Below are positions 38,907 to 50,954 of a stretch of DNA of 64,000 bases, piece after piece. How positions within the stretch are numbered: position 1 is the first letter of the stretch; each line of letters starts with the position of its first letter. Where the stretch lies: assembly GCA_003130875.1 (NCBI GenBank), contig QEXY01000005.1:14799-78798 (forward strand), written 5' to 3'. The notes beneath the pieces were generated by a model. It made no database searches and was not told where the DNA came from. It saw only the letters and a list, made by a program, of their open reading frames with translations. This DNA comes from Ardenticatenia bacterium (GTDB lineage: Bacteria > Chloroflexota > Anaerolineae > 4572-78 > NAK82). A program made the translations under genes and the position numbers.

Positions 38907-41180
38907 ATGAGAAAGGCGAGGATCGTGCGACGTGATTACAGTTTGATTGGCAAGGATGCAGCTCTGGCGGTCGAGAAAGGCTTGGCCAATGCTCCGTGGT
39001 ATACGCCCCCCGTCCCCAAAGAAAAGATGCGTGAGCTGCTCGAGCGACGAGATGGTCCGGCTATCCGTGACACAGTTCTCTGGTTCGTCCTGCTCTTTGC
39101 GTTTGGTCTAGCCGGCTATCTGCTTTGGGGCAGCTATTGGGCCATCATCCCCTTTCTGATATATGGTGTACTCTATGCATCGGTATCCGACTCGCGCTGG
39201 CACGAAACCAGCCACGGCACTGCTTTCAAGACGGACTGGCTGAACAATGTGCTATACGAAATCGCCTCTTTTATGGTGCTGCGTGAGTCAGTGCCATGGC
39301 GCTGGAGTCACACACGGCATCATAGCGACACCATCATTGTGGGCCGTGACCCCGAGATCGCCGTGCCACGTCCGGCGAATCTTTTGGAAATCTTTTCGAA
39401 GTTTTTCAACGGCCAGGCCTGGATCAAATATGTCCGGACGGTCTTCTGGCACTGCCTCGGCAAGATGACACCCGAAGAAAAGACCTACATACCGGAAACG
39501 GAGTATCCTAAGGTGTTCCTCCGCGCATGGATATACGCCTTGATCTATCTCGGGGTTATCGCCCTGGCAGCCTATACCGGCAGCATTTTGCCACTTATGT
39601 ACATCGGTCTGCCCAATTTTTACGGAGCCTGGTTGATGGTTGTATACGGCCTTACACAGCACGCTGGGTTGGCCGAGGACGTCTTGGATCATCGTCTCAA
39701 CACGCGCACCTTCTACATGAATCGGGTGCATCGCTATCTCTACTGGAACATGGGATATCACATCGAGCACCATATGTTCCCGTTAGTGCCATACCATGCA
39801 CTGGATAAGCTCCATGAGGTGGTCAAGCCACACATGCCCAAACCCTATAAAGGGGTTATCGAAGTGTATCGCGAGCTCATCCCAGCGCTGTGGCGTCAAT
39901 CTACGGATCCCACTTACTATGTGAAGCGGGAAGTGCCAATTGTGGAAGAATTGTCAGAGACACAAGTGTCGGCAGCGGTGGCAGTCGAAACAGAGGCCAC
40001 AATCGATGGTTGGGTCAAGGTCTGTCCGTGCCACCAGTTGCAAAACGAAGAAGTGATGCGTTTTGACTATCGCAACAAGGTCTATGCTATCTACCGTACG
40101 GCCGACGGCAACGTCTATGCCACTGATGGTGTCTGTACCCATGGCAACGCCCTGTTGACCGATGGATTTCTGAGAGGCCATCTCATCGAGTGTCCGAAGC
40201 ACAACGGGCGCTTTGACATTCGCGATGGATCTCCTCAACGGCCTCCTGTTTCCATTCCGCTCAAGGCTTATGAAGTGCGCGAGAACGAGGGGCAGGTATG
40301 GCTCAACGTTGCAGTAGCTCGCGGCTCCGGTCTCGCGGAGGCAGCGCCCACGTACACATTCCGGGTCATCCGCAACGAGAATGTCACCCCCGTGATCAAA
40401 GAATTGATCCTCGAGGTGGAGGAGCCTATGTCCGTGCTGACCTACCAGCCCGGCGATTATCTGCAATTCGAGATCCCTGCCTATGCGGAGCGCACGCTAC
40501 ACGACGTCGAGATTAATCCGCCCTATGATAAAGTTTGGAAAGAGCTTCATCTTCATGATCTCAAGGTAGCCAATCCCATCCCATGTCGCCGCAGCTATTC
40601 GTTCGCCAGCAACCCGGCTACGGAACGATATTTGCGTTTTAACGTTCGCCTGGCCACACCTCCGCCGGGGCAAGACGTCTATGCCGGGGTTGGCTCGGCC
40701 TATCTATTTGCCCTGAAACCTGGGGACAAGGTCACGGCAATAGGCCCGTTCGGCGCGTTTCACATCAGGCCGACCGGGCGCGAAATGGTGTATCTGGGCG
40801 GAGGGTCAGGGATGGCGCCACTCCACTCTCATATTGCGTATCTCTTCGAGACTGAGAAGACCTCGCGTCGGGTGAGTTACTGGTTTGGAGCACGTGCGCG
40901 CCGTGATCTATTCTACCAGGATTATTTCGAGCGGCTGGCGGCGCAGCATGCCAATTTCAGCTTCCACGTTGCCCTTTCTGAACCTTTGCCCGAAGATGGA
41001 TGGACCGGACATACCGGCTTCATCCATGAAGTGCTGCGGCGCGAGTACCTGAATACCCATCCCGACCCAACACAGGTCGAATACTATCTGTGCGGTCCGC
41101 TGCCAATGATCCGGGCGGCGGTCGCAATGCTCACCGAACTAGGTGTGGATCAAGACCAGATCATCAGCGATGAGTTTTAG
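38907..41180 (+). CDS. Triple fusion: membrane fatty-acid-desaturase/hydroxylase domain, Rieske [2Fe-2S] domain and NqrF-type FAD/NAD(P)H reductase domain
   Basis: His boxes are HETSHG, HTRHH and HIEHH. The Rieske motif is CTH-x16-CPKH. The FNR domain has RSYSFAS, GGGSGMAP and YYLCGP. The start is ATG 38907 (or GTG 38904) after a GGAGAGA SD. Confidence 0.8.
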   Translation: MRKARIVRRDYSLIGKDAALAVEKGLANAPWYTPPVPKEKMRELLERRDGPAIRDTVLWFVLLFAFGLAGYLLWGSYWAIIPFLIYGVLYASVSDSRWHETSHGTAFKTDWLNNVLYEIASFMVLRESVPWRWSHTRHHSDTIIVGRDPEIAVPRPANLLEIFSKFFNGQAWIKYVRTVFWHCLGKMTPEEKTYIPETEYPKVFLRAWIYALIYLGVIALAAYTGSILPLMYIGLPNFYGAWLMVVYGLTQHAGLAEDVLDHRLNTRTFYMNRVHRYLYWNMGYHIEHHMFPLVPYHALDKLHEVVKPHMPKPYKGVIEVYRELIPALWRQSTDPTYYVKREVPIVEELSETQVSAAVAVETEATIDGWVKVCPCHQLQNEEVMRFDYRNKVYAIYRTADGNVYATDGVCTHGNALLTDGFLRGHLIECPKHNGRFDIRDGSPQRPPVSIPLKAYEVRENEGQVWLNVAVARGSGLAEAAPTYTFRVIRNENVTPVIKELILEVEEPMSVLTYQPGDYLQFEIPAYAERTLHDVEINPPYDKVWKELHLHDLKVANPIPCRRSYSFASNPATERYLRFNVRLATPPPGQDVYAGVGSAYLFALKPGDKVTAIGPFGAFHIRPTGREMVYLGGGSGMAPLHSHIAYLFETEKTSRRVSYWFGARARRDLFYQDYFERLAAQHANFSFHVALSEPLPEDGWTGHTGFIHEVLRREYLNTHPDPTQVEYYLCGPLPMIRAAVAMLTELGVDQDQIISDEF

Positions 41181-42127
41181 CGGTTCAAGCGCAGGATTTC
41201 GGCGGCGGTGCGCGCGTCGGTGATCAGCACGTTGATGAATTTACCGCGCAGCGCGCCTAAGATAGCTGATGCTTTGGCCAGGCCGCCGGCCACACCGACC
41301 ACCTTGGGGATCTGGGCCAACATCTGCTGATTGGCTGCAATCAACCGCCGATTTAGGGAGATGTCGAGCACGCGTCCCTGAAGGTCGAATTGATAACCCA
41401 GGACGTCACCCACAGCACCTGCCCTGGCGAGTTCACGGAGGTCCGCACCGGTGAGAAAGCCGGCGCGGTATAGGCTGGATAATTCGGGGTCGATCGTGCC
41501 GATGCCGGTGATGGCGATCTCGACATGGCGAACCAGCTCCATAGTGCTGACGATTGTGGGTTCCTGTAGGAGGGCAAGTGCAGTCGCCTCGCTCTCTACT
41601 AGCGCGGGAGCATGCAGGAAGCGGATGGTGGCGCCCAATTTTTGGGCCAACAGGCGGGCACACTCCGGCCCATCTACGGTGGAATGACCCCGCGCCACGG
41701 CGCCAAGCAGCTGGATGACCATGGCATCGCGCAGAGGGATATTGACCACATTGCGCGCCGTCTCATAAACGGCAGTCCCCCACCCGATGCCGACCTTGAT
41801 CCCATCATGCAGCTGTCGCTGCAGGAAGCGTGCACACAGCTCGCCCAAATGCTGGATCAGGGTGGTATACTGGATGGGAGCTTCGGCCAGGACCCATGCA
41901 TCCACCAACCCGAAGGTCTTGATCAGGGTCGCTCCCAGCTCAGCATCCACGTTGATCAGCTTATTAACGCGGATGACAACAATCCCTTCTTCTCGCGCCT
42001 CTTGGAGAAGTCGTGATATCGTGGAACGCGACAGGCCAAGGCGGCGTGCGATCTCCTCTTGAGTTCGGTTCTCCTCGTAATACCATGCGGCGACTTGTTC
42101 TAGCAGCTCGTGACGGGTTTGATACAT
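41177..42127 (-). CDS. SorC/DeoR-type sugar-binding transcriptional regulator
   Basis: The N-terminal HTH is RTQEEIARRLGLSRSTISRLLQEAREEG. A sugar-phosphate-binding domain follows (GIGWGTAV...). ATG 42127 is the preferred start. Confidence 0.8.
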   Translation of the reverse strand: MYQTRHELLEQVAAWYYEENRTQEEIARRLGLSRSTISRLLQEAREEGIVVIRVNKLINVDAELGATLIKTFGLVDAWVLAEAPIQYTTLIQHLGELCARFLQRQLHDGIKVGIGWGTAVYETARNVVNIPLRDAMVIQLLGAVARGHSTVDGPECARLLAQKLGATIRFLHAPALVESEATALALLQEPTIVSTMELVRHVEIAITGIGTIDPELSSLYRAGFLTGADLRELARAGAVGDVLGYQFDLQGRVLDISLNRRLIAANQQMLAQIPKVVGVAGGLAKASAILGALRGKFINVLITDARTAAEILRLNR

Positions 42128-42177
42128 ATGCGCCGTATGCTCTCGCCGATATAGTGCATCCCCAACAGAAAAAACGT

Positions 42178-42921
42178 TCAAACCCGTTCCGGCCACACTT
42201 GGAGCGTGGATTTCAGCAATTGTGCATCTTCGAGTGTCCGACGCAAATCTGCCATGAAGCGCGCAGCGTGGGCGCCATCTGCAATGCGGTGGTCACACGA
42301 GAGCGTGGCAATCATCGTCGGGGCGGCAATAAGCTGATCATCCCGCACGATGGGACGTTTTGCCACCCGCCCCACCGCCAAGATCGCCGCATCTGGTGGA
42401 CTGATAACTGCTTGGAAGGCATCGATGTCCAGCATTCCCATGTTGGAGAGGGTGAATGTACGGCCGGTCAAGTCACCTGCCTGGAGGCGGCGTGCCCGTG
42501 CACCCGCCTCCAGCTCTGCTGCGCGATGGGCGAGCTCCAGTAGGGACATGCGTTCGGCATGATGCAGCACAGGGATGATCATCCCATCCTCCAGGCCGAC
42601 CACAAAGCCGAGATGCACCGATGCGTACTCCTCAATCCCCTCTTCTGTCAGACGTGCGTTGAGCCGTGGATGTTGCATCAACAGGGCAGCGACAACTTTT
42701 AATAGAAGGTGGGTGAGTGTCAGGCGTTGTTGGGTGTGAGTCGCTCTGAGCTCGTCCAACAACTCTTGGGCAGATTGCATGGCTATTTCCTGTGCGATAT
42801 AGAAATGGGGGATGTCGCGTTTGCTGCGCACAACGCGCTCGATAATGGCACGGCGCATAGAGTTTAACGGGACCCGCTGTGCGATCACAGGTTGGGTTAT
42901 GGGTTCTTCCGTCGCATTCAT
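42178..42921 (-). CDS. 2-oxoacid dehydrogenase E2 catalytic (acyltransferase) domain only
   Basis: 247 aa. It begins directly at the catalytic domain, with active site SCDHRIADGAHAARF. It has no lipoyl or peripheral-subunit-binding domain. Confidence 0.8.
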   Translation of the reverse strand: MNATEEPITQPVIAQRVPLNSMRRAIIERVVRSKRDIPHFYIAQEIAMQSAQELLDELRATHTQQRLTLTHLLLKVVAALLMQHPRLNARLTEEGIEEYASVHLGFVVGLEDGMIIPVLHHAERMSLLELAHRAAELEAGARARRLQAGDLTGRTFTLSNMGMLDIDAFQAVISPPDAAILAVGRVAKRPIVRDDQLIAAPTMIATLSCDHRIADGAHAARFMADLRRTLEDAQLLKSTLQVWPERV

Positions 42922-42976
42922 CGTATGCCTTCCGAGTCAAACGACCACGCTTCTACTGTTCTTTTGAACACTTGGC

Positions 42977-43234
42977 TTATTCGGGCAATGGTTCGTCAGG
43001 GTCGGCGATATAGGCTAGAACGTCTCCCACTTTAGCGGTCTCGCCTGCTGGCACCTTGATGCGACGCAACACCCCGCTGCCGAGTGCTTCGACTTGCAAC
43101 ACCGCTTTGTCGGTTTCCACTTCGAACAGCATCTCTCCCCGTTCGACGTGGTCACCTTCCTGCTTTAACCACTGGAGTATTTTGTAAGAGTCAGCTGTTT
43201 CGGTGAGAGGAGGCATTACCACGGAGGTGATCAT
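42977..43234 (-). CDS. Stand-alone lipoyl-domain protein
   Basis: 85 aa. The lipoyl-Lys motif is FEVETDKAVLQVEA. Confidence 0.8.
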   Translation of the reverse strand: MITSVVMPPLTETADSYKILQWLKQEGDHVERGEMLFEVETDKAVLQVEALGSGVLRRIKVPAGETAKVGDVLAYIADPDEPLPE

Positions 43235-43291
43235 TGTTGGTTACCTTTCTCCTGTTATGTGATCGAATTGTTCGCAAAAGACCCCAAGCAT

Positions 43292-44299
43292 CTATGCCGA
43301 GGCCGCACGAATGGCCACCTCAGTGCTCACCATCTCTTTCACCACTTGAACAATCTGGGCAACACTGGGGACAACCTGTTTCTCCAATTGTGAGTGTGCC
43401 GGCAGAGGCACGTGCAATCCACCCAAACGACGCACCGGTGCTGCCAAGATGTCGAACAGCCTTTCCTGCAGACTGGCGGCGATCTCTGCCCCGAATCCGC
43501 CGAACACGCTGGCTTCGTGGACCACCACCGCCCGACGCGTCTTGGTCACAGAGGTGATCACAGTATCCATATCAAGTGGCGCCAGAGTTCGCAGGTCAAT
43601 AACCTCGGCGCTGATGCCGATTTGGCTGAGCTCCTGCGCCGCAGCCAGTGCAGTGTGCACCATATTGGAATAGGCGATCAGTGTGACATTGTTGCCCGGC
43701 CGCTTGATGTCAGCCACTCCCAGAGGAATCGTATATTCCTCTTCGGGTACTTCGCCCTCTAGTGCGTATAAGCCCTTATGTTCGATGAACATCACTGGGT
43801 TGTCATCGCGGATGGCGCTTTTGAGTAGTCCTTTGGCGTCGTAGGGCGTCGCCGGCATTACCACCTTTAAGCCAGGCACGTGGGCAAACCATGCTTCAAG
43901 GCTTTGGGAGTGCTGAGGCCCTGCGCCACGGCCAGTGCCCTGTTGCGTGCGAATGACTAGAGGAGCTTTCAACTGACCGCCGAACATACAGTGCAGCTTA
44001 GCGGCTTGATTGACGATCTGGTCCATAGCCAGCGTAGCAAAGTCGATATACATAATCTCGGCCACTGGACGACCTCCTACAACGGCAGCGCCCAGGGCCG
44101 CACCGACAATGATCGCCTCGGACATCGGCGCATCGATGATGCGCTTAGGACCAAATTCCTGTAGCAGCCCTTGTGTGACCGCATAAGCGCCACCATAACG
44201 TCCCACGTCCTCGCCAATCACAAACACGCGCGGATCGCGTTGCATTTCCTCGCGCAGTGCTTCTCGAAGTGCCTCACGGTAACGAATCTTGCGCACCAT
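43292..44299 (-). CDS. TPP-dependent dehydrogenase E1 beta subunit (acetoin/pyruvate dehydrogenase-like)
   Basis: It has IGEDVGRYGGAY and the transketolase pyrimidine-binding and C-terminal domain pattern. Confidence 0.9.
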   Translation of the reverse strand: MVRKIRYREALREALREEMQRDPRVFVIGEDVGRYGGAYAVTQGLLQEFGPKRIIDAPMSEAIIVGAALGAAVVGGRPVAEIMYIDFATLAMDQIVNQAAKLHCMFGGQLKAPLVIRTQQGTGRGAGPQHSQSLEAWFAHVPGLKVVMPATPYDAKGLLKSAIRDDNPVMFIEHKGLYALEGEVPEEEYTIPLGVADIKRPGNNVTLIAYSNMVHTALAAAQELSQIGISAEVIDLRTLAPLDMDTVITSVTKTRRAVVVHEASVFGGFGAEIAASLQERLFDILAAPVRRLGGLHVPLPAHSQLEKQVVPSVAQIVQVVKEMVSTEVAIRAASA

Positions 44300-44326
44300 G
44301 CTCTCACCCTGTCTGGTATGATCTCT

Positions 44327-45286
44327 TTATGCAAACACATCTTCTAAGACGCTGTCCAAAGTAGCCGATGGGCTCTCTTCGGCGAAACGCACGGCATCAG
44401 CGATGACTTCTGCCACTTTCGCTTCGATCGTTTCTACATCGGTTTGTGTCAGAACCCCTTCTCGGAACAGATACTCCTGATAGATACGGATCGGATCGCG
44501 GGCGCGTTGTCTCGTCTCTTCTTCCTTATCCCGGTATGGGCTTGGGTCGCCGCGCGAATGTCCCAGGAAGCGATAGGTTTGGGCACCGATGAGGGTGGGG
44601 CCTTCGCCGCACCGGGCGCGCTCAATCGCTTGTAAGGCCACCTGACGCACGGCCAGTACATCTTGCCCATCCACCTCGATGCCGGGCATGCCATAGGCTT
44701 CGCCCTTGCGTGCAAACGAGTGTTCAGCCGTCGCATGCGTCCAGGGCAGTGACATGGCATACTGGTTGTTCTCACATACAAAGACGATCGGCAAGCGCCA
44801 CAACGCGGCCATATTGGCCGCTTCATGGAATATTCCCTCCGTCATTGCCCCTTCGCCGAAGAACGCGACGGTGACCCGGCCGTCATTTTGCAAGCTAGAC
44901 CACAATGCTGCGCCAGTCGCGATGCCAATATGCCCGCCGACAATCCCGTTCGAGCCAAGGTGGCCCAAGCTGACATCCACCAAATGCATCGAGCCGCCGC
45001 GCCCTTTACAGTAGCCTGTCTCCCGACCCAATAGCTCCGCGATGATCCGCCGCAAATCCCCGCCACGGGCGATGATGTGGCCATGCCCACGATGGGTGCT
45101 GGTGAGGTAGTCATGAGGCTGCATCGCGGAGCAAACGCCAGTGGCAACCGCCTCCTGACCGATACTGACATGACACATACTGCTGGCCAGCTTTCCCTGG
45201 AGCAATAACTCGAGAATCTTTTCTTCCGTGCGACGGATCAGCAACATCGTGTGATACAAGTTGGTCAACGTTTCTCGATCTTCCAT
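44327..45286 (-). CDS. TPP-dependent dehydrogenase E1 alpha subunit
   Basis: I trimmed to ATG 45286 (MEDRETL...). The TPP motif is FFGEGAMTEG...VCENNQYA. It also has YRFLGHS. Confidence 0.9.
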   Translation of the reverse strand: MEDRETLTNLYHTMLLIRRTEEKILELLLQGKLASSMCHVSIGQEAVATGVCSAMQPHDYLTSTHRGHGHIIARGGDLRRIIAELLGRETGYCKGRGGSMHLVDVSLGHLGSNGIVGGHIGIATGAALWSSLQNDGRVTVAFFGEGAMTEGIFHEAANMAALWRLPIVFVCENNQYAMSLPWTHATAEHSFARKGEAYGMPGIEVDGQDVLAVRQVALQAIERARCGEGPTLIGAQTYRFLGHSRGDPSPYRDKEEETRQRARDPIRIYQEYLFREGVLTQTDVETIEAKVAEVIADAVRFAEESPSATLDSVLEDVFA

Positions 45287-45314
45287 AACACTACGCCCTC
45301 TTCTCTCATACATT

Positions 45315-46874
45315 TTATCGATGGGTTTGTCGCGCGATATGTCGGGCCATCTCATGCATCAGGTCGCGCATCTGGGGATAGGTGTTAATGTACTTGTCCA
45401 CAAAAAACTGATATGCTTCATGAGTCGTGGGGTCCGGTACAATGCGATCGGTCACACGCACCATAGCTTTGGAAGCAGCCGCCAGGCTGGGATAAGCGCC
45501 ACAGCCCACAGCGGCACAGATGGCGGATCCCAAGACCGCTGCAGATGCACCTGCCTCGGTTAACGATATCGGTACATTGCTCACATCGGCGTGAATTTGC
45601 ATCCACAACTTGCTCTTTGTGGGCCCGCCCGATGCCACCAGCTCCTGAGCGACGTAGCCATATTGGCGCATCGTGCGCAAGATGTGCTCGGTGCCATAGG
45701 CAATGCCCTCCATAATCGCGCGGAACACATGCGCGGGTGTGTGGGATAAGCTCAATCCCCAGATCATCCCGCGCGCTTCTGGATCGACGTAGGGAGTGCG
45801 ATTGCCCTGCCAGTAATCCAATACGATCAATCCATCCGAGCCAGGAGGAAGTTGAGCGGCTTCCTCTGTGAGCAGGTCGTAGGCGCTGACCCCCAAAGCT
45901 TGCGCCCTTTGTACGTGATTGCCGGCAAAGTTGTCCCGGAACCAGCGCACAACCGAGCCTGTTGAAATCTGGCCGCCCTCAACGGTGTATTGGCCGGGGA
46001 TCAAGCAATCTGTATAAGCACCAAAGATGCCTTTGCCGTGGAATTGATGGGCGGATTGTCCCAAGAGAAGGTGCGAAGAACCCACAATGAAGGCCATTTT
46101 ACCTGGTTCGACCACGTCCAGGCCGAGCATTGCGATGTAGGCATCGGCGCCACCTTGGGCAACGGGAATGCCGGCTCGAAGTCCCAGCTCCTCGGCTACC
46201 TCGGGGCGTAGTGTACCCACCACTTCACCCAGGTTGAGGATACGCTGTGGGAATCGGGCCAGTAGATCGCCCAGTCCGATGCCCTCGTAGAAGTCTGTTG
46301 GGAAGCCGCCTGTGTTGCGATCGTAATACCAGCGAATACTGGTGTTGTTAATGCTGCCCACCCATTCACGGGTCAAGCGATGCATGAACCAATCCACATA
46401 TTCGCCTACATAGCGTGCCTTTGCCCAGATCCCCGGTTGATTCTCCTTAACCCAGAGGGCCTTGCATGGCATCCACTCAGCCGACACATTGCCGTAACCG
46501 TTGTATTTGAGGGCATCATACCCGCTGGCGGCGATGCGCCTGGCCTGGTCGGCGGCACGCACATCCATCCAGATGATGGCCGGACGCAGTGGGTGAAATT
46601 GTTCGTCCATGAAAACAACTGTGCAGCTGGTGAAATCACCGCTGATGCCCGCGATCGAATGCGGATGCAACCCTGATTGCTCGACCGTTTTTCTCACAGC
46701 AGCGACGATGGCCGCCCACCATTCCTCTGGGTCTTGTTCTGCCCATCCCGGATGTGGGTGATATACCGGATAAGGGATCGCCTCGGAGGCGATCATCTTC
46801 CCTTGGGGATCAAAGATGGCGGCACGCACGCTCTCCGTGCCACAGTCGATGCCGAGAAAGTGCTGATCTGCCAC
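45315..46874 (-). CDS. FGGY-family pentulose (ribulokinase-like) kinase
   Basis: It has FLGIDCGTESVRAAIFD, GWAEQDP and GGQISTGS, with a length of 519 aa. Confidence 0.85.
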   Translation of the reverse strand: MADQHFLGIDCGTESVRAAIFDPQGKMIASEAIPYPVYHPHPGWAEQDPEEWWAAIVAAVRKTVEQSGLHPHSIAGISGDFTSCTVVFMDEQFHPLRPAIIWMDVRAADQARRIAASGYDALKYNGYGNVSAEWMPCKALWVKENQPGIWAKARYVGEYVDWFMHRLTREWVGSINNTSIRWYYDRNTGGFPTDFYEGIGLGDLLARFPQRILNLGEVVGTLRPEVAEELGLRAGIPVAQGGADAYIAMLGLDVVEPGKMAFIVGSSHLLLGQSAHQFHGKGIFGAYTDCLIPGQYTVEGGQISTGSVVRWFRDNFAGNHVQRAQALGVSAYDLLTEEAAQLPPGSDGLIVLDYWQGNRTPYVDPEARGMIWGLSLSHTPAHVFRAIMEGIAYGTEHILRTMRQYGYVAQELVASGGPTKSKLWMQIHADVSNVPISLTEAGASAAVLGSAICAAVGCGAYPSLAAASKAMVRVTDRIVPDPTTHEAYQFFVDKYINTYPQMRDLMHEMARHIARQTHR

Positions 46875-46925
46875 GTGATCCTCCTTGGCTTGTAGAATGT
46901 GAAATACTTCGGAAGCCTACTTGCT

Positions 46926-47921
46926 CTAGAAGAAGCGGATTTCCTCGCGTCGCACGGCGAGCAAGACCGCGAAGATCAAAATGCCTCCACGCACCATATT
47001 TTGCAGGTAGAAAGGAGCACCTACCATATTGAGACCGTTGTTAATAATGCCCAACGTCAGCACACCGACCAGGGTGCCGAGGATGTTGGCTTGGCCGCGC
47101 TTGATCGTGGTCATGCCCAAGAACACGGCTGCCAGTGCATCCATTGTGTAGGGATCTGCCCCTTGAGGTTGGGCCGAGCCCAGGTAAGAAGTCAGCATGA
47201 CACCTGCCAGGGCAGCGAAGAACCCGCTGCACACTAAGCCCAAGAAGCGATACCGTTCCGTGTTGATACCGCTGAGCTTGGCTGCTTTGGGATTGGCACC
47301 GGTGGCGATCACATAACGCCCGGCGCGTGTCTTATTGAGGAAGAGGTACTGAACTAGCAATACTGCCAGGGCGAGGATGACGGCAAAGGGCACAACTCCC
47401 ACGAATCCCTGGCCGATGAACTTGAAGGTGGCCGGCATCTGTCCGTAGATGGAGTCGCCACCCGCATAAGCGAAGTTCACCCCCAATGCGATAGACGAGC
47501 CGCCGATCGTGGCGATCAACGAAGGCACGCGAAACACAGTGACGATGAAGCCGAACAATGTCCCAAAAGCTGCTCCAGACAGCAGCGCGACGACAAGTGC
47601 CACTTCGAACGGTTGCTCCTGGCGCACCATCAAGCCGGCCACCAGAATACCGGCCAAGCTGGCAACGGTTCCGACGGAGAGATCAAATTCACCCGCCGCG
47701 ACACAAATGGTCAAACCACCCGCCACGACGGCCAATGTGGAAACCTGGCGCAGAATGTTGAGCAGATTACGTCCGCTCACAAAGCGGCCTTCCAGGATCC
47801 AAAAGGCCACGAAGACAGCCACCAGAGCTAACACCGTGCCGTAGCGCGCGATGAAATCCTCCCAATCGACTGCAGGCGATTTAAGCCTCCCTGCCGTTGG
47901 GGCTTGCTCCACTTTCATCAC
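46926..47921 (-). CDS. Sugar ABC transporter permease (RbsC-like)
   Basis: A multi-TM protein with the RbsC-family pattern (FDLSVGTVASLAG, NTERY). Confidence 0.85.
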   Translation of the reverse strand: MMKVEQAPTAGRLKSPAVDWEDFIARYGTVLALVAVFVAFWILEGRFVSGRNLLNILRQVSTLAVVAGGLTICVAAGEFDLSVGTVASLAGILVAGLMVRQEQPFEVALVVALLSGAAFGTLFGFIVTVFRVPSLIATIGGSSIALGVNFAYAGGDSIYGQMPATFKFIGQGFVGVVPFAVILALAVLLVQYLFLNKTRAGRYVIATGANPKAAKLSGINTERYRFLGLVCSGFFAALAGVMLTSYLGSAQPQGADPYTMDALAAVFLGMTTIKRGQANILGTLVGVLTLGIINNGLNMVGAPFYLQNMVRGGILIFAVLLAVRREEIRFF

Positions 47922-47946
47922 ATTTTCCTCCTAGTGCATCCAGAAA

Positions 47947-49473
47947 TCATTGAGATGTGTGTTGAACAACAGTTGCCTCTGTCGCTCCCAACATATGTTG
48001 CAAGACAGTCTCTTGAGTAAAGTCCGGACGCCTGCCTGAACCGACCACCTTGCCGGCGCGCATAATATAAATGCGGTCCGCCAACACCATCAACTCTTCC
48101 AGGTCGGACGTTGCGACCACGACTCCGGCACCTTGTGCCGCGAGACCGCGGATGATGTTCCACATCTCAGCACGCGCGCCCACGTCGATCCCTTCGGTCG
48201 GCTCGTCAAGCAGGAAAACCTTTCCTTGCACATCTTCACCGACGGCCAACCATTTGCCGAACACGATTTTCTGCTTGTTACCACCGCTTAAGTTGCCCAC
48301 GTTGGTACGCAGACTAGGAGTGACAATGCCCAGCCGTTTGACCACGTTGCTGGCCACCTGTCGCAGGCTTTGTTCCGAAACGACCCCGGCCGGAGAGTGA
48401 TCGGGCAGACAGGCCACCGTGAGATTTTCCAGCACATCTAAACGCATCATCAGGCCCTTTTCCATGCGCTTCTCCGGCACCAGAATGAGCCCGTGGCGAA
48501 TGGCTTGTTGCGGCGTGCGGATGCGTTTGGATTCGCCTTTGATCAGAATCTCACCACTGCGCACATCCCGATAGCCGACTAGGCTCTCCAACAATTCCGT
48601 GCGACCGGCGCCGACAACCCCGGCCAGGCCGACCACTTCCCCGGCGTGGACTTTCAGGGATATATCATCAAATCCTTCGCCGCATAGATTGCGCACTTCC
48701 AGCAGCACGGGTCTCCCTGTGGCATCCACATAATCCGAAGTGGTCTCGGCAATCTCGCGCCCCACGATCAACCGTGGCACGTCTTCCGGCTTATAGGCGG
48801 TGATAGGGCCGGTGCTGACCACCTTGCCGTCCCGCAGAATGGTGATATGGTCCGCTATCTCGAACACTTCATCCAAGTGATGGGAGACGAAGATGATCCC
48901 CACCCCGCGCTCCTTGAAACGGCGCAGTGTGTCAAACAAGTGCTCTGTTTCGGCTGCCGAAAGAGAGGCGGTGGGTTCGTCTAAGACGATCACTTTGGGA
49001 GAGGTGCGCAGAGCGCGTGCAATGTCCACCAACTGTTGCTTGCCCGCGCCCAGCTTTTCAACGTCCGCATCGATGTCCAGGTCGCCGATGCCCAAATTTT
49101 CCAGGAGTTCTCGGGCACGCTGACGCAACAATTGGTTATTGATGACTCCCAGCTGCGAGGGCTCGATGCCCAATAAGATGTTTTCGGCGACTGTCAGGTG
49201 ACGAATTAGAGTGCGTTCCTGGTGGACGACTACGATGCCGTGTTGGGCGGCATCGCGCGCATGGTTCAGATGCAAGAGCTGACCATCGAGAAAGATAGAG
49301 CCATGATCAGGTTTTTCGGCGCCGGCGATCACTTTGACCAAGGTGGATTTGCCAGCGCCGTTCATTCCCACCAAAGCGTGGATTTGGGCGCGCTCCAGGA
49401 TGAAGTCCACATGGTCAAGCGCCCGCACCCCTGGATAGGTTTTGACGATGTCACGTGCTTCGAGAAGTGCCAT
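47947..49473 (-). CDS. Sugar ABC transporter ATP-binding protein (duplicated ATPase, RbsA-like)
   Basis: Walker A is GMNGAGKST in the first half and GVVGAGRTEL in the second. The signatures are LGAGKQQLV and LSGGNKQK. Confidence 0.9.
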   Translation of the reverse strand: MALLEARDIVKTYPGVRALDHVDFILERAQIHALVGMNGAGKSTLVKVIAGAEKPDHGSIFLDGQLLHLNHARDAAQHGIVVVHQERTLIRHLTVAENILLGIEPSQLGVINNQLLRQRARELLENLGIGDLDIDADVEKLGAGKQQLVDIARALRTSPKVIVLDEPTASLSAAETEHLFDTLRRFKERGVGIIFVSHHLDEVFEIADHITILRDGKVVSTGPITAYKPEDVPRLIVGREIAETTSDYVDATGRPVLLEVRNLCGEGFDDISLKVHAGEVVGLAGVVGAGRTELLESLVGYRDVRSGEILIKGESKRIRTPQQAIRHGLILVPEKRMEKGLMMRLDVLENLTVACLPDHSPAGVVSEQSLRQVASNVVKRLGIVTPSLRTNVGNLSGGNKQKIVFGKWLAVGEDVQGKVFLLDEPTEGIDVGARAEMWNIIRGLAAQGAGVVVATSDLEELMVLADRIYIMRAGKVVGSGRRPDFTQETVLQHMLGATEATVVQHTSQ

Positions 49474-49593
49474 TTTCTGGGTCGATCTCCCAAGCGTGTG
49501 AAACGGCCGCCGCCAACGCGAAGTTGGCAGGCGACCGTTTGCGGATCAGTGACTGAACATAACCATCTGCAGCGTGAGAGACAGGTGCCAGTT

Positions 49594-50688
49594 TTACTCT
49601 TTGATCATCGCTTGCTCGAAGAAGAGCTGATAGAAGTCCACCGTCTCCCACGGCATCTTGCCTTCAGGCGGCATATTGACACCTTTCACAATGAAAGGAG
49701 CGGGGAAGTCCACCTGAGGCACGGGCACAACCTCCTTGGCCGGCCGCCCTTTGCCCACAATCTCGTCCACAAAGGAGCCAGCTAAGGCCCCCCACAGCTC
49801 AAAGGCCTGAGCCGGCGTGGCCACCAGCGGATAATCTGGGTTACGCATCTCTTCTACGGCAGGAGGATGGCCGTCTGCTCCGACTACAAACGCATCCTTG
49901 ACCGTCATGCCCTGGCTGACCAGTGCCTGCGCGGCCGCTTGAGCCGGCTCGTCCCACGGGCACCAGATGGCATCGATGTCCTCGCCATAGCGGTTGATCC
50001 AGTCGTTCACTGTGTTGAGCGTGGTCTCGAAGAAACCTTCGTACTGAATGACTTGGTCGGCCAGCACCTTGATATTCTCATTCTCCGAGAGGACCGCATC
50101 CCGCACCTTGCCGCGCTTGCGCGTTCCATGGTGGAAGTTGGCGGTGATGGTGCAGATATTCGCCTCAGTCTTGCCCTCACCCAGCAAGCGCTGTACCAGG
50201 TAGGAGGTCATATGAGAACCCATCACATAGTTGTTGGAAGCGATGTCACAGATGGCGGGCGGATAATAGCCCGAGTCCACCGACAACATGGGAATGCCTG
50301 CCTTGGCGACCGCCTGCAAAGCCCCCTGGGCAGCGGTCAGCGTGCCAAAGGTGACGATGATGGCATCCACACCACGCGAAACAGCATCTTCGATCGTGGC
50401 CGAGAGCTGACCGGGATCTCCTTTGGCATCAGTCACGGTGACGTCCCAGGGAAGGCCGGATGCCTTTAACCAGTTCTCAAAACCGGCCTTGACGCGCTGG
50501 TTGCTCTGAGCGGAGAGCTGCTGACACAGATAAGCGATTTTGAGCTCTTTCTTCTGGCGCGGCACATCAGGTCGTACGTGAGAGAAGAGAGTTTTTGCAA
50601 ATGCCGATGTCACCGAGCTGGTGAGTGCCAGTCCGGCAGCGCCTAGGGCACTGGCCAGCAGAAATTCACGCCGTGTTACTTTCGACAT
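49594..50688 (-). CDS. Sugar ABC transporter substrate-binding protein (RbsB/LsrB-type periplasmic binding fold)
   Basis: It has a Tat-like signal (TRREFLLASALGAAGLAL) and a type I PBP pattern. It is the first gene of the operon. Confidence 0.85.
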   Translation of the reverse strand: MSKVTRREFLLASALGAAGLALTSSVTSAFAKTLFSHVRPDVPRQKKELKIAYLCQQLSAQSNQRVKAGFENWLKASGLPWDVTVTDAKGDPGQLSATIEDAVSRGVDAIIVTFGTLTAAQGALQAVAKAGIPMLSVDSGYYPPAICDIASNNYVMGSHMTSYLVQRLLGEGKTEANICTITANFHHGTRKRGKVRDAVLSENENIKVLADQVIQYEGFFETTLNTVNDWINRYGEDIDAIWCPWDEPAQAAAQALVSQGMTVKDAFVVGADGHPPAVEEMRNPDYPLVATPAQAFELWGALAGSFVDEIVGKGRPAKEVVPVPQVDFPAPFIVKGVNMPPEGKMPWETVDFYQLFFEQAMIKE

Positions 50689-50915: not shown

Positions 50916-50920
50916 AAACC

Positions 50921-50949: not shown

Positions 50950-50954
50950 TCATA

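What the first reader, a model, noticed from the sequence alone, without database searches (positions are those of the whole stretch)
41177..50688. Sugar ABC importer + pentulose kinase operon wired to an acetoin-dehydrogenase-like E1/E2 system
**What the sequence shows.**
- Nine co-directional, closely spaced genes lie on the minus strand. In order they are the RbsB/LsrB-type binding protein, RbsA-like ATPase, one permease, FGGY pentulose-kinase-like enzyme, TPP-dependent E1 alpha and beta, a lipoyl-domain protein, an E2 catalytic domain and a SorC regulator.
- The front half resembles polyol/AI-2 type loci. Established examples are lsr (ABC, FGGY LsrK, SorC LsrR) and ery (FGGY EryA, SorC EryD).
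- There is no isomerase, aldolase or dehydrogenase for onward metabolism.
- An LsrF/DhnA-family aldolase is encoded about 14 kb away (26839).

**Inference.** The phosphorylated ketose, an alpha-hydroxyketone or diketone chemically analogous to acetoin or phospho-DPD, may be cleaved oxidatively by the E1/E2 system. A C2 unit would pass via lipoamide to CoA. I do not know this route as a described sugar pathway.
Basis: inference. Interest (0 to 1): 0.6.

Follow-up and report, generated by a model that had tools for sequence, protein, structure and literature searches.

The report
Sugar-kinase operon with acetoin-type lipoyl dehydrogenase
A conserved, uncharacterised nine-gene operon joins a sugar/polyol importer and a sugar kinase to an acetoin-dehydrogenase-type enzyme set, and most likely splits a phosphorylated keto-sugar (best guess 1-deoxy-D-xylulose 5-phosphate) into glyceraldehyde 3-phosphate and acetyl-CoA, a route I could not find described in the literature searched.

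Summary
Nine tightly packed minus-strand genes (41177-50688) encode a CUT2 ABC importer, an unassigned FGGY kinase, E1 alpha/beta, a free 85-aa lipoyl protein, a stand-alone E2 catalytic domain and a SorC regulator.

**Single unit.** One strong promoter with an overlapping palindrome lies upstream. No internal promoter or terminator was found.

**Conservation.** The wiring is not chance:
- The same nine-gene order recurs in diverged Chloroflexota (37-73% protein identity).
- The FGGY-E1ab-lipoyl-SorC core recurs in Actinomycetota.
- A window-type cluster occurs in Sinorhizobium meliloti and Shinella.

**Enzyme type.** The E1 is acetoin-type (STHRGHGH), not PDH-type. It belongs to a sub-family (GHS-K/R after the catalytic His) that sits in sugar-phosphate contexts and is distinct from true acetoin clusters. 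In the only studied relative (C. difficile acoRABCL), wild type and an acoA mutant showed no difference in acetoin level, and acetoin did not support growth.

**Substrate clue.** In the wider sub-family the commonest neighbour is DRL/DXR-II, the alternative DXP reductoisomerase.

**Best model.** Imported 1-deoxy-xylulose or methylerythritol (or a related polyol) is phosphorylated, and DXP is cleaved to G3P plus acetyl-CoA. The substrate identity is inferred and untested. I found no published description in the searched library.

The parts
50921..50949 (-). Promoter-like site: TTGACA, 17 nt spacer, TATACT, with TG extension
   Evidence: 11 of 12 matches. It is the only strong sigma-70-type site in 40900-51300 and lies about 230 nt upstream of the SBP start.
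50955..50968 (.). Candidate operator: perfect palindrome TGCACAATTGTGCA next to the -35 hexamer, with a further half-site TGTGCA at 50936
   Evidence: The same palindrome (at most 1 mismatch per half-site) lies within 400 nt upstream of the first operon gene in 8 of 15 non-redundant orthologous loci, against 0.06 expected. A related ACA-N2-TGT core occurs in the S. meliloti and Shinella intergenic regions.
49594..50688 (-). Substrate-binding protein of a CUT2 (ribose-type) ABC importer, with a Tat-type signal peptide
   Evidence: Peripla_BP_4 scores 102 bits. No NCBIfam equivalog is reached (RbsB 58 vs cut-off 337). It is 72-73% identical in the orthologous Anaerolineae clusters.
47947..49473 (-). 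Two-domain ABC ATPase
   Evidence: ABC_tran x2. It is below all equivalog cut-offs (AraG 483 vs 689).
46926..47921 (-). Single ABC permease (BPD_transp_2)
45315..46874 (-). FGGY-family sugar/polyol kinase of unassigned specificity
   Evidence: FGGY_N and FGGY_C are both present, and it is below all equivalog cut-offs. Orthologues sit directly upstream of E1 alpha in 16 of 19 orthologous loci. Orthologues also occur stand-alone, and one lies next to a DRL-like gene in Priestia.
44327..45286 (-). TPP-dependent E1 alpha, acetoin-dehydrogenase type, sugar-linked sub-family (T64-HRGHGH, G144-E-G, H243-S-R245)
   Evidence: The ORF extends to 45355, but homologues and an RBS-like GAGG favour ATG 45286.
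43292..44299 (-). E1 beta
   Evidence: Transket_pyr + Transketolase_C. The best solved relative is Thermus 2-oxo acid dehydrogenase beta (E 2e-95).
42977..43234 (-). Free-standing lipoyl carrier protein (85 aa, lipoyl-Lys43 in ETDKA)
   Evidence: The best NCBIfam match is the lipoyl domain of acetoin-dehydrogenase AcoC. A stand-alone 81-88 aa form is conserved in all orthologous loci.
42178..42921 (-). Stand-alone E2 acyltransferase catalytic domain (247 aa; DHR His211, LSNMG Ser) without lipoyl or subunit-binding domains
   Evidence: It is present as a separate gene only in the Chloroflexota nine-gene version. It is absent from the Actinomycetota and Oscillospiraceae versions. S. meliloti has an alpha/beta-hydrolase instead.
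41177..42127 (-). SorC-family (sugar-phosphate-sensing type) transcriptional regulator, last gene of the operon
   Evidence: Sugar-bind 215 bits + HTH. It is below the DeoR (205 vs 420) and LsrR (158 vs 486) cut-offs. The ORF extends to 42196, and homologues of 314-325 aa favour ATG 42127.

Best explanation
This is a SorC-repressed catabolic operon read from one promoter. The steps are given below, and the shown/inferred status of each is listed after them.

**Proposed pathway**
1. A CUT2 ABC system imports a small neutral sugar or polyol.
2. The FGGY kinase phosphorylates it, directly or after oxidation by polyol dehydrogenases that many relatives carry.
3. The resulting phosphorylated alpha-hydroxy-ketone is attacked at its carbonyl by the TPP of an acetoin-type E1 alpha2-beta2. 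The C2-C3 bond breaks as in acetoin cleavage and releases an aldose phosphate.
4. The C2 unit is transferred reductively to a free lipoyl protein.
5. The stand-alone E2 catalytic domain passes the C2 unit to CoA.
6. The dihydrolipoyl protein is re-oxidised by a lipoamide dehydrogenase encoded elsewhere.

**Most likely substrate**
- The imported compound would be 1-deoxy-D-xylulose, with the kinase making DXP directly.
- Alternatively it is 2-C-methyl-D-erythritol or a related polyol, with the kinase making MEP and a DXP reductoisomerase running backwards.
- The sugar phosphate is also the probable inducer of SorC.

**Shown:** gene content, operon structure, conservation, and E1 sub-family identity and its contexts.

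**Inferred:** every catalytic step, the substrate, and the direction of flux.
For: **Gene identities and tight packing.**

**Single promoter plus conserved operator.**

**Conserved synteny**
- The nine-gene order is conserved at 37-73% protein identity.
- The FGGY-E1ab-lipoyl-SorC core occurs in Actinomycetota.
- S. meliloti and Shinella carry SorC, SBP-ATPase-permease-E1a-E1b-lipoyl-acyltransferase-FGGY-SDR-SDR.

**E1 type**
- The E1 shares STHRGHGH with genuine acetoin E1 alpha from E. faecium and Acinetobacter clusters that carry butanediol dehydrogenase. Human PDH has TAYRAHGF at this position.
- After the catalytic His, this E1 has GHS-K/R where genuine Aco enzymes have GHFEGD.
- That sub-type is enriched in sugar/SorC contexts: 70 of 120 versus 2 of 35.
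- It forms its own clade.

**Experimental data on a relative.** C. difficile acoRABCL is a SorC-linked member. [quoted passage not shown]

**Link to DXP**
- A DRL-like oxidoreductase is adjacent to E1 alpha in at least 24 wider-family loci and in five alpha-proteobacterial plasmids.
- The Rhizobium protein is 74% identical to Brucella DRL, a proven DXP reductoisomerase (PDB 3UPL, E 6e-216; PMC3847144).
- Distant copies keep Thr229 and Arg320.
- Other neighbours fit a DXP/pentulose-phosphate hub: true XylB, ribulose-phosphate 3-epimerase, a RuBisCO-like protein, and transketolase.
- Priestia has DRL-like and FGGY (48%) genes side by side next to E1-E2-E3-SorC.

**Chemical precedent (titles in the reference list of PMC3424233)**
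- Wungsintaweekul 2001, E. coli xylulokinase phosphorylates 1-deoxy-D-xylulose.

**Self-sufficiency.** Both proposed products are central metabolites, which explains why the cluster needs no further enzymes.
Against: - There is no biochemical or genetic test of any step.
- The window's own E1 clade never has DRL next to it, and it is a sister of the DRL-rich clade rather than nested in it (an NJ tree without support values). Its substrate could therefore be a different ketose phosphate.
- FGGY orthologues (56-75% identity) also occur alone, or in tetritol-like clusters with transketolase, aldolase, RpiB and DAK but no E1.
- The role of the paired polyol-type SDRs in relatives is not explained cleanly by 1-deoxy-xylulose as the substrate.
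- Two orthologous E1ab-lipoyl loci have no sugar genes nearby (L009, L102).
- Several relatives lack an E2 catalytic gene.
- Some DRL-family members (DLO1/2) lack DXR activity (PMC3847144).
- The loci were retrieved with patterns derived from the query, so the sample is biased and phylogenetically non-independent.
Confidence: 0.5

Rival explanations
1. The architecture is the same, but the E1 substrate is an ordinary 2-ketose phosphate such as xylulose 5-phosphate (or ribulose-5-P or fructose-6-P). E1 would form dihydroxyethyl-TPP as transketolase does. Oxidation by the lipoyl group would then give glycolyl-CoA plus G3P. Alternatively, after a phosphoketolase-like dehydration, it would give acetyl-CoA without net redox. 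The imported compound would be a pentitol or pentulose.
For: - The FGGY scores highest against the ribulokinase, xylulokinase and pentulose-kinase models.
- The neighbouring SDRs resemble polyol dehydrogenases: GolD/DthD and L-iditol 2-dehydrogenase.
- RPE, XylB and transketolase neighbours all make or use Xu5P.
- The SBP's closest solved relatives include polyol binders (the ligand identities are from my memory).
- No E3 in the cluster would fit a redox-neutral variant.
Against: - It does not explain why DRL/DXR-II is the commonest neighbour of the sub-family.
- Glycolyl-CoA needs further enzymes, and none is conserved in the clusters.
- Xu5P already enters the pentose-phosphate pathway, so the selective benefit is unclear.
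- The E1 is of the acetoin (methyl-ketone) type.
- I found no described natural enzyme that does this.
Confidence: 0.17
2. The E1/lipoyl/E2 genes are a genuine acetoin (2,3-butanediol) dehydrogenase system. They merely share an operon or regulator with an unrelated sugar importer and kinase. The SDRs in relatives would be butanediol dehydrogenases.
For: - The E1 alpha carries the acetoin-type STHRGHGH motif.
- The lipoyl protein matches the AcoC lipoyl domain best.
- The SDRs give sub-threshold hits to acetoin reductase and meso-butanediol dehydrogenase.
- S. meliloti has an AcoC-type alpha/beta-hydrolase.
- JGI annotates relatives as acetoin:DCPIP oxidoreductase.
Against: - The kinase-E1 adjacency is conserved across three phyla at low sequence identity, with a shared operator.
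- The E1 differs from genuine Aco clusters at GHFEGD, shares only 38-44% identity with them, and falls in a separate clade.
- There is no sigma-54 AcoR, no AcoL and no butanediol dehydrogenase in the window.
- The regulator is of a sugar-phosphate-sensing type.
- For the SorC-linked C. difficile operon, no acetoin consumption difference or growth benefit was seen.
- A ribose-type ABC importer and a kinase have no role in acetoin use.
Confidence: 0.1
3. The E1/lipoyl module oxidises a hydroxy-aldehyde released from the sugar (L-lactaldehyde, glycolaldehyde or glyceraldehyde) to the acyl-CoA. Rodionov et al. guessed this for the three-subunit acetoin-dehydrogenase-like genes Athe_0702-4 in the rhamnose locus of Caldicellulosiruptor.
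For: - PMC8579813 makes this suggestion.
- The Oscillospiraceae relative lies next to a rhamnosidase.
- One relative has DhaK/DhaL after the lipoyl gene.
Against: - The window cluster encodes no aldolase or other enzyme that could release an aldehyde.
- Aldehyde oxidation is normally done by CoA-acylating aldehyde dehydrogenases.
- It does not explain the DRL, RPE or XylB neighbours.
- The published suggestion was never tested.
Confidence: 0.07
4. It is an AI-2 (DPD) uptake and processing system analogous to lsr. Phospho-DPD (or its hydrate) would be cleaved by E1/E2 instead of by LsrG/LsrF.
For: - The layout is lsr-like: ribose-type ABC, FGGY kinase and SorC regulator.
- Phospho-DPD is a methyl diketone from which an acetyl unit could be taken.
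Against: - All lsr equivalogs are far below cut-off: LsrK 219 vs 528, LsrR 158 vs 486, LsrA 398 vs 586.
- There is no LsrB hit, and there is one permease instead of two.
- The kinase scores higher against the pentulose-kinase models.
- Polyol SDRs, DRL, RPE and TK in relatives have no place in AI-2 processing.
Confidence: 0.04
5. It is simply the organism's pyruvate dehydrogenase, placed under a sugar-phosphate-sensing SorC regulator as CggR controls glycolytic genes.
For: - E1 beta passes the PDH E1-beta sub-family model (416 vs 321).
- E1 alpha is near the PDH_E1_alph_y model (361.5 vs 393.85).
- Many Chloroflexota have SorC-E1-E2 clusters.
Against: - E1 alpha is below the PDH cut-off and carries acetoin-type motifs rather than PDH-type ones.
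- The E2 is split and lacks a subunit-binding domain, and there is no E3.
- One MAG carries both this system and a second E1-E2 cluster (L010 and L062).
- The placement inside a transporter-kinase operon is conserved.
Confidence: 0.04

Closest known systems
Acetoin dehydrogenase enzyme system (AcoABCL; e.g. Bacillus subtilis, Pelobacter carbinolicus, Acinetobacter, Enterococcus plasmids)
   Same: - It has a TPP-dependent heteromeric E1 alpha/beta with the STHRGHGH motif.
- A lipoyl group acts as acyl acceptor and an acyltransferase passes the acyl group to CoA.
- The chemistry expected here is the same C-C cleavage of an alpha-hydroxy-ketone.
   Different: - E1 alpha is only 38-44% identical, falls in a separate clade, and has GHS-R/K instead of GHFEGD.
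- The E2 is split into a free lipoyl protein and a free catalytic domain with no subunit-binding domain.
- There is no E3, no sigma-54 AcoR and no butanediol dehydrogenase.
- The genes are embedded between a sugar importer/kinase and a SorC regulator.
Clostridioides difficile acoRABCL (CD0035-CD0039), 'predicted acetoin dehydrogenase' (Wetzel et al., bioRxiv 10.1101/2023.07.28.551048)
   Same: - It is an acetoin-type E1/E2 of the same GHS-K sub-family, co-transcribed with a SorC/DeoR-type regulator and next to sugar PTS genes.
- It is the only member with experimental data. [quoted passage not shown]
   Different: - It has a fused E2 and its own LpdA.
- The regulator is the first gene rather than the last.
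- It has a PTS instead of ABC + FGGY.
- E1 alpha is 42% identical, and the substrate is still unknown.
DRL / DXR-II (Brucella abortus DXP reductoisomerase-like enzyme, PDB 3UPL) and its gene neighbourhood in Rhizobiaceae plasmids
   Same: - DRL sits directly upstream of E1a-E1b-E2 of the same sub-family, together with SorC and a polyol PTS or an ABC + kinase.
- It supplies the chemical link to DXP/MEP.
   Different: - The window and its orthologous clade have no DRL gene.
- DRL is described only as a biosynthetic MEP-pathway enzyme.
- The one DRL-family paper I could read (PMC3847144) does not mention this neighbourhood. The other DRL papers were not available.
lsr (AI-2) and ery (erythritol) loci
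   Same: The general logic is shared: a ribose-type ABC importer (lsr), an FGGY kinase acting on the imported compound, and a SorC regulator that senses the phosphorylated product.
   Different: - No lsr component reaches its family cut-off.
- The downstream enzymes are entirely different: LsrG/LsrF in lsr, or EryBCHI isomerases in ery, versus E1/lipoyl/E2 here.
Phosphoketolase and the transketolase-based catabolic routes (e.g. apulose-4-phosphate transketolase pathway; from my own knowledge)
   Same: A TPP enzyme removes a C2 unit from a ketose phosphate and leaves a triose phosphate. The net logic is 'pentose phosphate -> G3P + activated C2'.
   Different: Here the C2 acceptor would be a lipoyl protein and then CoA, with NAD+ reduction, rather than phosphate or an aldose. 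The enzyme family is also different (E1 alpha/beta).
Athe_0702-4 of Caldicellulosiruptor bescii (PMC8579813)
   Same: It is an acetoin-dehydrogenase-like three-subunit set inside a sugar (rhamnose) regulon, noted as unassigned.
   Different: It lies in a different sugar context. Its proposed lactaldehyde oxidation role is a guess, and I could not retrieve the sequences to place them.

Membership tests
Acetoin dehydrogenase enzyme system (AcoABCL) | E1 alpha of the acetoin type (sequence signature shared with E1 alpha of clusters that carry butanediol dehydrogenase / acetoin reductase) | tested here: inconclusive
   The STHRGHGH motif is shared with the E. faecium and Acinetobacter Aco E1 alpha. 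However, GHFEGD and ENN-S/G-F are replaced by GHSRGD and ENNQYAMS. Identity is 38-44%, and the protein falls in a separate clade.
Acetoin dehydrogenase enzyme system (AcoABCL) | E2 (AcoC) with a lipoyl domain fused to the acyltransferase domain, and E3 (AcoL) in the operon | tested here: not met
   The lipoyl protein and the catalytic domain are separate genes, there is no subunit-binding domain, and no E3 is present in the window.
Acetoin dehydrogenase enzyme system (AcoABCL) | Acetoin-responsive sigma-54 activator AcoR and/or adjacent butanediol dehydrogenase | tested here: not met
   The regulator is SorC-type, and no BDH or AcoR lies in or next to the cluster.
Acetoin dehydrogenase enzyme system (AcoABCL) | Cleaves acetoin to acetaldehyde + acetyl-CoA | not testable with these tools
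   This needs an enzyme assay. [quoted passage not shown]
Pyruvate dehydrogenase complex (alpha/beta E1 type) | E1 alpha reaches the curated PDH equivalog score | tested here: not met
   TIGR03182 scores 361.5 against a cut-off of 393.85, and TIGR03181 scores 267.6 against 411.35.
Pyruvate dehydrogenase complex (alpha/beta E1 type) | Multidomain E2 (lipoyl - subunit-binding - catalytic) that forms the core binding E1 and E3 | tested here: not met
   The 247-aa protein is covered at residues 15-236 by the catalytic domain alone, and the lipoyl domain is on a separate 85-aa protein.
lsr AI-2 uptake/processing system | LsrK, LsrR, LsrA, LsrC/D equivalogs; LsrB-type binding protein; two permeases; LsrF/LsrG | tested here: not met
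   LsrK 218.9 vs 528, LsrR 158.3 vs 486, LsrA 397.8 vs 586, LsrC/D about 110 vs 388-500. There is no LsrB hit and only one permease. The distant aldolase scores 105.5 vs 297 for LsrF.
CUT2 (ribose-type) sugar ABC importer | Peripla_BP_4 binding protein, fused two-domain ATPase, BPD_transp_2 permease | tested here: met
   Substrate specificity is not assignable, because all equivalogs are below cut-off.
FGGY carbohydrate kinases | FGGY_N + FGGY_C domains | tested here: met
   160 and 140 bits.
FGGY carbohydrate kinases | Membership of a characterised specificity group (ribulokinase, xylulokinase, glycerol kinase, LsrK, etc.) | tested here: not met
   the best is ribulokinase at 321 vs 428. A genuine AraB (732 bits) coexists with the orthologue in L010.
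SorC/DeoR-type sugar-phosphate-responsive regulators | N-terminal HTH + C-terminal PF04198 sugar-binding domain | tested here: met
   215 bits. The effector is unknown.
DRL-linked E1/E2 clusters (putative DXP-cleaving dehydrogenase; not a described family) | DRL/DXR-II gene adjacent to E1 alpha | tested here: not met
   there is no DRL-like hit in the window or in any locus of its orthologous clade. The link is indirect, through the shared E1 sub-family signature and shared FGGY orthologues.

The most novel reading that the evidence does not exclude
This operon and its relatives encode an undescribed catabolic route for MEP-pathway-type C5 compounds (1-deoxy-D-xylulose and 2-C-methyl-D-erythritol). 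An acetoin-dehydrogenase-derived 'DXP dehydrogenase' (E1ab + lipoyl carrier + acyltransferase) would split DXP into G3P and acetyl-CoA. On this reading, the DRL/DXR-II enzyme, known only as an alternative isoprenoid-biosynthesis enzyme, originally works in reverse (MEP -> DXP) to feed this cleavage. The puzzling 'aco' operon of C. difficile and the cluster in Sinorhizobium meliloti would belong to the same pathway family.
Probability: 0.35. Interest if true: 0.85.

Novelty: new variant of a known kind. Interest (0 to 1): 0.72.

Why it matters
If the model is right, several things follow.
- A large and widespread set of genes now annotated as 'pyruvate/acetoin dehydrogenase E1/E2' would belong to sugar or polyol catabolism. 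They occur in Chloroflexota, Actinomycetota, Firmicutes including C. difficile, and Rhizobiaceae including S. meliloti.
- It would define a new way of breaking a phosphosugar, by lipoyl-dependent oxidative C2 removal. This is an NAD-linked counterpart of phosphoketolase.
- It would give a first catabolic fate for DXP/MEP-type metabolites.
- The dissociated architecture is unusual for this enzyme class and would be convenient for reconstitution. It has a free lipoyl protein and a free catalytic domain, and in some lineages no dedicated acyltransferase or E3.
- The hypothesis is directly testable in cultured bacteria that carry the same cluster.

Tried and rejected
**Literature**
- I used ten full-text searches: FGGY + acetoin dehydrogenase, apulose, glycolyl-CoA, SorC + xylulokinase, PDH-like ketose pathway, rhamnose/lactaldehyde, DRL, C. 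difficile aco, methylerythritol + acetoin dehydrogenase, and methylerythritol/deoxyxylulose catabolism.
- None found a described pathway.
- The Sangari 2010 and Perez-Gil 2012 DRL papers and Mauchline 2006 were not held. I therefore could not check whether the DRL neighbourhood or the S. meliloti transporter's inducer has been reported.

**Leads dropped**
- The aldehyde dehydrogenase upstream of FGGY in L011 looked like a pathway member. It is an L-piperidine-6-carboxylate dehydrogenase scoring above its cut-off, so it is unrelated.
- The lsr/AI-2 reading was rejected on family scores.
- The DhnA-type aldolase at 26839 was rejected as a partner.

**Checks with limited or negative results**
- A frameshifted E2 was excluded by the sequence and by conservation.
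It found E3 only in L057 at that stage. E3 genes are annotated in several plasmid relatives.
- One context look-up (P0160, Caldilinea) returned nothing.

**Not attempted**
- I did not run structure prediction. The tools return no coordinates or ligand positions, so I could not test whether Arg245 lines the substrate channel.
- I could not assign the FGGY or SBP specificity from sequence.

Full report
**1. What is in the sequence**

Nine ORFs lie head-to-tail on the minus strand between 50688 and 41177. Pfam and NCBIfam identify them as follows:
- a Peripla_BP_4 binding protein;
- a two-domain ABC ATPase;
- one BPD_transp_2 permease;
- an FGGY kinase;
- TPP-dependent E1 alpha and E1 beta;
- an 85-aa lipoyl-domain protein;
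- a 247-aa 2-oxoacid_dh catalytic domain;
- a SorC-type regulator.

No transporter component or kinase reaches any curated equivalog cut-off. The kinase scores ribulokinase 321 vs 428, XylB 294 vs 380 and LsrK 219 vs 528.

The lipoyl protein has the ETDKA lipoylation motif (Lys43). The E2 domain has the catalytic DHR histidine (His211) and the LSNMG serine. Each of the two genes has its own ribosome-binding site and start codon. The catalytic-domain protein has no room for a peripheral subunit-binding domain.

Homologue lengths and an RBS-like sequence suggest E1 alpha starts at ATG 45286 and SorC at ATG 42127. Gaps between genes are 25-120 nt. The flanking genes are unrelated.

**2. One transcription unit with a conserved operator**

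- The only strong sigma-70-type site in the region (11 of 12 matches, with a TG extension) lies about 230 nt upstream of the binding-protein gene. No convincing promoter or terminator lies between the kinase and the E1 genes.
- Next to the -35 hexamer is a perfect palindrome, TGCACAATTGTGCA.
- Allowing one mismatch per half-site, the palindrome occurs in the 400 nt upstream of the first operon gene in 8 of 15 non-redundant orthologous loci. About 0.06 are expected from its frequency elsewhere in those loci. The motif was derived from the window, so the independent count is 7 of 14.
- In Chloroflexota it precedes the binding-protein gene. In Actinomycetota it precedes the FGGY gene that heads an FGGY-E1a-E1b-lipoyl-SorC operon.
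- A related ACA-N2-TGT core is repeated in the SorC/SBP intergenic regions of S. meliloti and Shinella.
- This pattern is what a shared, autoregulated SorC repressor would give. The binding itself is inferred.

**3. The wiring is conserved**

E1 alpha homologues are mostly from Chloroflexota MAGs. The nearest genome is an uncultured Ardenticatenia MAG, with all nine proteins 82-97% identical.

| Lineage | Architecture |
|---|---|
| Four further Anaerolineae/Chloroflexi genomes | Identical nine-gene order; SBP 72-73%, FGGY 69-71%, E1a 64-68%, E1b 65-66%, lipoyl 51-53%, E2c 46-50%, SorC 37-39%; followed by two polyol-type SDRs |
| Other Chloroflexota | A different ABC system but the FGGY-E1a-E1b-lipoyl core kept; once followed by DhaK/DhaL |
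| Actinomycetota | FGGY-E1a-E1b-lipoyl-SorC without an E2 catalytic gene; next to a DeoR/FGGY/M42/BtpA/ABC cluster |
| Oscillospiraceae relative | SIS-E1a-E1b-lipoyl-split transketolase-SIS-SIS-HAD-HPr |
| Sinorhizobium meliloti and Shinella oryzae (cultured) | SorC, then SBP(42%)-ATPase-permease-E1a(45%)-E1b(50%)-lipoyl protein-alpha/beta hydrolase-AhpD-like protein-FGGY(44%)-SDR-SDR |

FGGY lies directly upstream of E1 alpha in 16 of 19 loci of the >=60% identity group that have enough upstream sequence. The exceptions are:
- one locus with an SDR in that position (L001);
- two loci without sugar genes nearby (L009, L102).

The kinase family is not exclusive to this context. Orthologues at 72-75% identity stand alone in other Chloroflexota. 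Orthologues at 56-59% identity sit in Rubrobacter polyol clusters with transketolase, aldolase, RpiB and DAK but no E1.

**4. What kind of E1 this is**

- Against solved structures the closest is human PDH E1 alpha (E 1e-62). The alignment shows differences at active-site motifs.
- I took two reference clusters as genuine acetoin systems because they carry butanediol dehydrogenase or acetoin reductase. One is an E. faecium plasmid cluster, which also has a sigma-54 regulator and lpdA. The other is an Acinetobacter plasmid cluster, which also has lipA.
- All acetoin-type sequences, including the window's, share STHRGHGH where human PDH has TAYRAHGF. The E1 therefore belongs to the family that cleaves alpha-hydroxy-ketones.
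- After the catalytic histidine, genuine Aco enzymes read GHFEGD. The window reads GHSRGD, and almost all sugar-linked relatives read GHS-K/R. S. meliloti reads GHARMD and human PDH reads GHSMSD.
- In the 155 distinct E1 alpha sequences collected, the GHS-K/R type has sugar or SorC genes within 7 kb in 70 of 120 cases. The other types do so in 2 of 35 (nominal Fisher P 6e-9). The sample is biased by the retrieval patterns and is not phylogenetically independent.
- From my memory of the human E1 structures, this position lies in the loop that forms a wall of the substrate channel. It is adjacent to phosphorylation site 1. A conserved basic residue there would suit an anionic substrate. This is an inference that I could not test.
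- A neighbour-joining tree (no support values) places genuine Aco E1 alpha in one clade and the sugar-linked sequences in another. The window's FGGY-linked group with the free lipoyl protein is a distinct basal sister clade of the sugar-linked one.

**5. Experimental data on a relative**

The C. difficile operon annotated acoRABCL is a member of the sugar-linked sub-family (GHSK). It is headed by a SorC-type regulator and followed by a sigma-54 regulator and a Gat-family PTS. Wetzel et al. (bioRxiv 10.1101/2023.07.28.551048) report four relevant results:
- acetoin does not support growth;
- acetoin represses rather than induces the promoter;
- regulation is unlike the known Aco systems;
- wild type and an acoA mutant show no difference in acetoin concentration.

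This fits a physiological substrate other than acetoin. The authors themselves do not exclude acetoin use under other conditions.

**6. What the wider sub-family points to**

A tblastn search of plasmids from cultured bacteria found E1a-E1b-E2 sets 47-52% identical to the window's, all in sugar-phosphate settings.

- **DRL in alpha-Proteobacteria.** In Rhizobium, Sinorhizobium americanum, Aminobacter, Nitratireductor and Pseudoroseomonas, the gene immediately upstream of E1 alpha is a 441-aa oxidoreductase. It sits together with SorC and either a glucitol-type PTS or an ABC system plus a sugar kinase.
- **Identity of that oxidoreductase.** The Rhizobium protein has the Pfam DRL catalytic domain. 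It is 74% identical over its full length to Brucella abortus DRL (PDB 3UPL, E 6e-216). DRL is the alternative DXP reductoisomerase, DXR-II (PMC3847144).
- **DRL in other phyla.** The same protein family lies next to E1 alpha, usually as DRL-SorC-E1a or DRL-E1a, in at least 24 of the metagenomic and MAG loci from Chloroflexota, Methylomirabilota, Actinomycetota and others. These copies keep Thr229 and Arg320, residues that PMC3847144 singles out as DXR-II-specific. That paper also shows that some DRL-family members (DLO1/2) lack DXR activity.
- **Other recurrent neighbours:**
  - a genuine XylB (572 bits against a cut-off of 380);
  - ribulose-phosphate 3-epimerase;
  - a RuBisCO-like protein;
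  - DhaK/DhaL;
  - SIS isomerases;
  - whole or split transketolase.
- **FGGY next to DRL.** In Priestia aryabhattai a DRL-like gene and an FGGY 48% identical to the window's lie side by side, next to E1-E2-LpdA-SorC and a glucitol-type PTS.
- **FGGY in the DRL-rich clade.** FGGY orthologues (63-64%) also neighbour E1 genes of that clade (L055, L071, L124).

MEP is not a ketone and DXP is an acetoin analogue (CH3-CO-CHOH-R). A TPP/lipoyl enzyme encoded next to DRL would therefore most simply act on DXP.

**7. Proposed mechanism**

- **Shown:** the operon encodes import, phosphorylation, an acetoin-type E1, a lipoyl carrier, an acyl-CoA-forming transferase and a sugar-phosphate-type regulator, under one promoter and operator.
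- **Inferred steps:**
  1. The imported compound is 1-deoxy-D-xylulose (the kinase makes DXP), or methylerythritol or a related polyol (the kinase makes MEP, which a DXP reductoisomerase converts back to DXP). In relatives, the SDRs would first oxidise a deoxy-polyol to the methyl ketone.
  2. E1-TPP adds to C2, the C2-C3 bond breaks and G3P leaves.
  3. The hydroxyethyl unit is transferred reductively to the free lipoyl protein.
  4. E2c forms acetyl-CoA.
  5. A lipoamide dehydrogenase encoded elsewhere regenerates the lipoyl group.
  6. The phosphorylated intermediate releases SorC from the operator.
- **Chemical precedent.** The reference list of PMC3424233 cites work on the formation of 1-deoxyketoses by pyruvate and acetoin dehydrogenases, and on phosphorylation of 1-deoxy-xylulose by E. 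coli xylulokinase. That paper itself shows that a mutated PDH E1 can replace DXP synthase. Reversibility of DXR is from my memory.
- **Self-sufficiency.** Both products are central metabolites, which would explain why the cluster needs nothing else.

I put the general mechanism (a phosphorylated alpha-hydroxy-ketone cleaved to an aldose phosphate plus acyl-CoA) at about 0.75. I put DXP specifically at about 0.4.

**8. Rivals**

- **A Xu5P-type substrate giving glycolyl-CoA, or acetyl-CoA after dehydration.** This fits the kinase scores, polyol SDRs, RPE, XylB and transketolase. It leaves DRL unexplained and requires downstream enzymes that are not conserved.
- **A genuine acetoin system that is merely co-located.** This is contradicted by the conserved adjacency, the distinct sub-family, the regulator type and the C. 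difficile data.
- **Hydroxy-aldehyde oxidation.** This follows the untested suggestion for Athe_0702-4 in PMC8579813. It lacks any aldehyde-releasing enzyme in the cluster.
- **AI-2 processing.** It fails the family tests.
- **A housekeeping PDH.** It also fails the family tests.

**9. Novelty and limits**

- The components are known enzyme kinds, but the assembly and the predicted reaction are not described in anything I could search.
- The closest published notes are two unassigned 'acetoin-dehydrogenase-like' systems, in Caldicellulosiruptor and in C. difficile.
- Everything about substrate and direction of flux rests on gene neighbourhoods, sequence signatures and chemical analogy.
- The window's own clade never carries DRL, so its substrate may differ from that of the DRL-linked clade.

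Noticed in passing
window 38859-41180 (+): A 773-aa three-domain fusion lies convergent to the SorC gene: a fatty-acid-desaturase/hydroxylase domain, a MocE-family Rieske ferredoxin, and an NqrF/FNR-type reductase. It looks like a fused MocD-MocE-MocF-type oxygenase. No match to it was seen in the same place in the closest relative, L005.
   Followed up: partly
window 26839-30318 (+): This is a separate sugar-phosphate neighbourhood. It holds a DhnA-type class I aldolase (ADH-synthase-like, 193 vs cut-off 241), a PfkB kinase, an MtaA/URO-D-family protein, and a class II aldolase-fold protein that passes the L-ribulose-5-P 4-epimerase sub-family model (336 vs 251). Its function is unknown.
   Followed up: partly
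window 24704-26035 (+): A LuxR/GerE-type HTH is fused to a Kelch beta-propeller (443 aa), which is an unusual regulator architecture.
   Followed up: no
window 57099-57971 (-); 32868-36169 (-): An MTA phosphorylase passes the TIGR01694 cut-off. A biotin carboxylase + carboxyltransferase pair, an acyl-CoA carboxylase, is also present.
   Followed up: no
L080 9956-12067 and L075 9890-12070 (Candidatus Roseilinea): E1 alpha and E1 beta are fused into one 703-726 aa ORF. The cluster reads SorC - fused E1 - fused E2 - genuine XylB - CUT1 ABC transporter.
   Followed up: partly
L184 8302-9952 (Sinorhizobium meliloti) and L182 (Shinella oryzae): In the alpha-proteobacterial version, the E2 role is split differently. 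There is a 145-aa lipoyl protein, a 248-aa alpha/beta-fold hydrolase (AcoC-type acyltransferase), and a 111-aa carboxymuconolactone-decarboxylase/AhpD-like protein with a CEEC motif. From memory, AhpD-type proteins exchange electrons with lipoyl groups, so this protein might stand in for E3.
   Followed up: partly
L087 13264-20987, L088, L091-L093 (Actinomycetota): Next to the FGGY-E1ab-lipoyl-SorC operon lies a conserved divergent set: a second FGGY + DeoR, then an M42 peptidase-like protein, a BtpA-family protein, and an ABC transporter. It resembles the uncharacterised E. coli sgc cluster. In L087 the M42 gene is preceded by the same type of palindrome (TGCACATACGTGCA).
   Followed up: partly
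L172 7598-8923, L176, L177, L178, L171 (Rhizobiaceae and relatives, plasmids): The DRL/DXR-II gene is known as an alternative isoprenoid-biosynthesis enzyme. Here it is embedded in what looks like a catabolic cluster: a polyol PTS or ABC + kinase, SorC, E1-E2(-E3) and HAD phosphatases. In Rhizobium sp. K1/93 the thiC-thiD thiamine genes lie 1-2 kb further on.
   Followed up: yes
L102 5990-6424: A XisH-family gene is inserted between E1 beta and the lipoyl gene in one orthologous locus. That locus has no sugar genes around it.
   Followed up: no
L010 16798-18357 (-): A protein combining an effector-associated domain (EAD7), a TIR domain and an FGE-sulfatase-like domain lies near the cluster in an Anaerolineae MAG. 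It is possibly defence-related.
   Followed up: no
window 44327-45286, residue 145 of E1 alpha: The TPP-Mg motif reads GEG instead of the usual GDG in the window and in several Anaerolineae orthologues. Other members of the same clade keep GDG.
   Followed up: no
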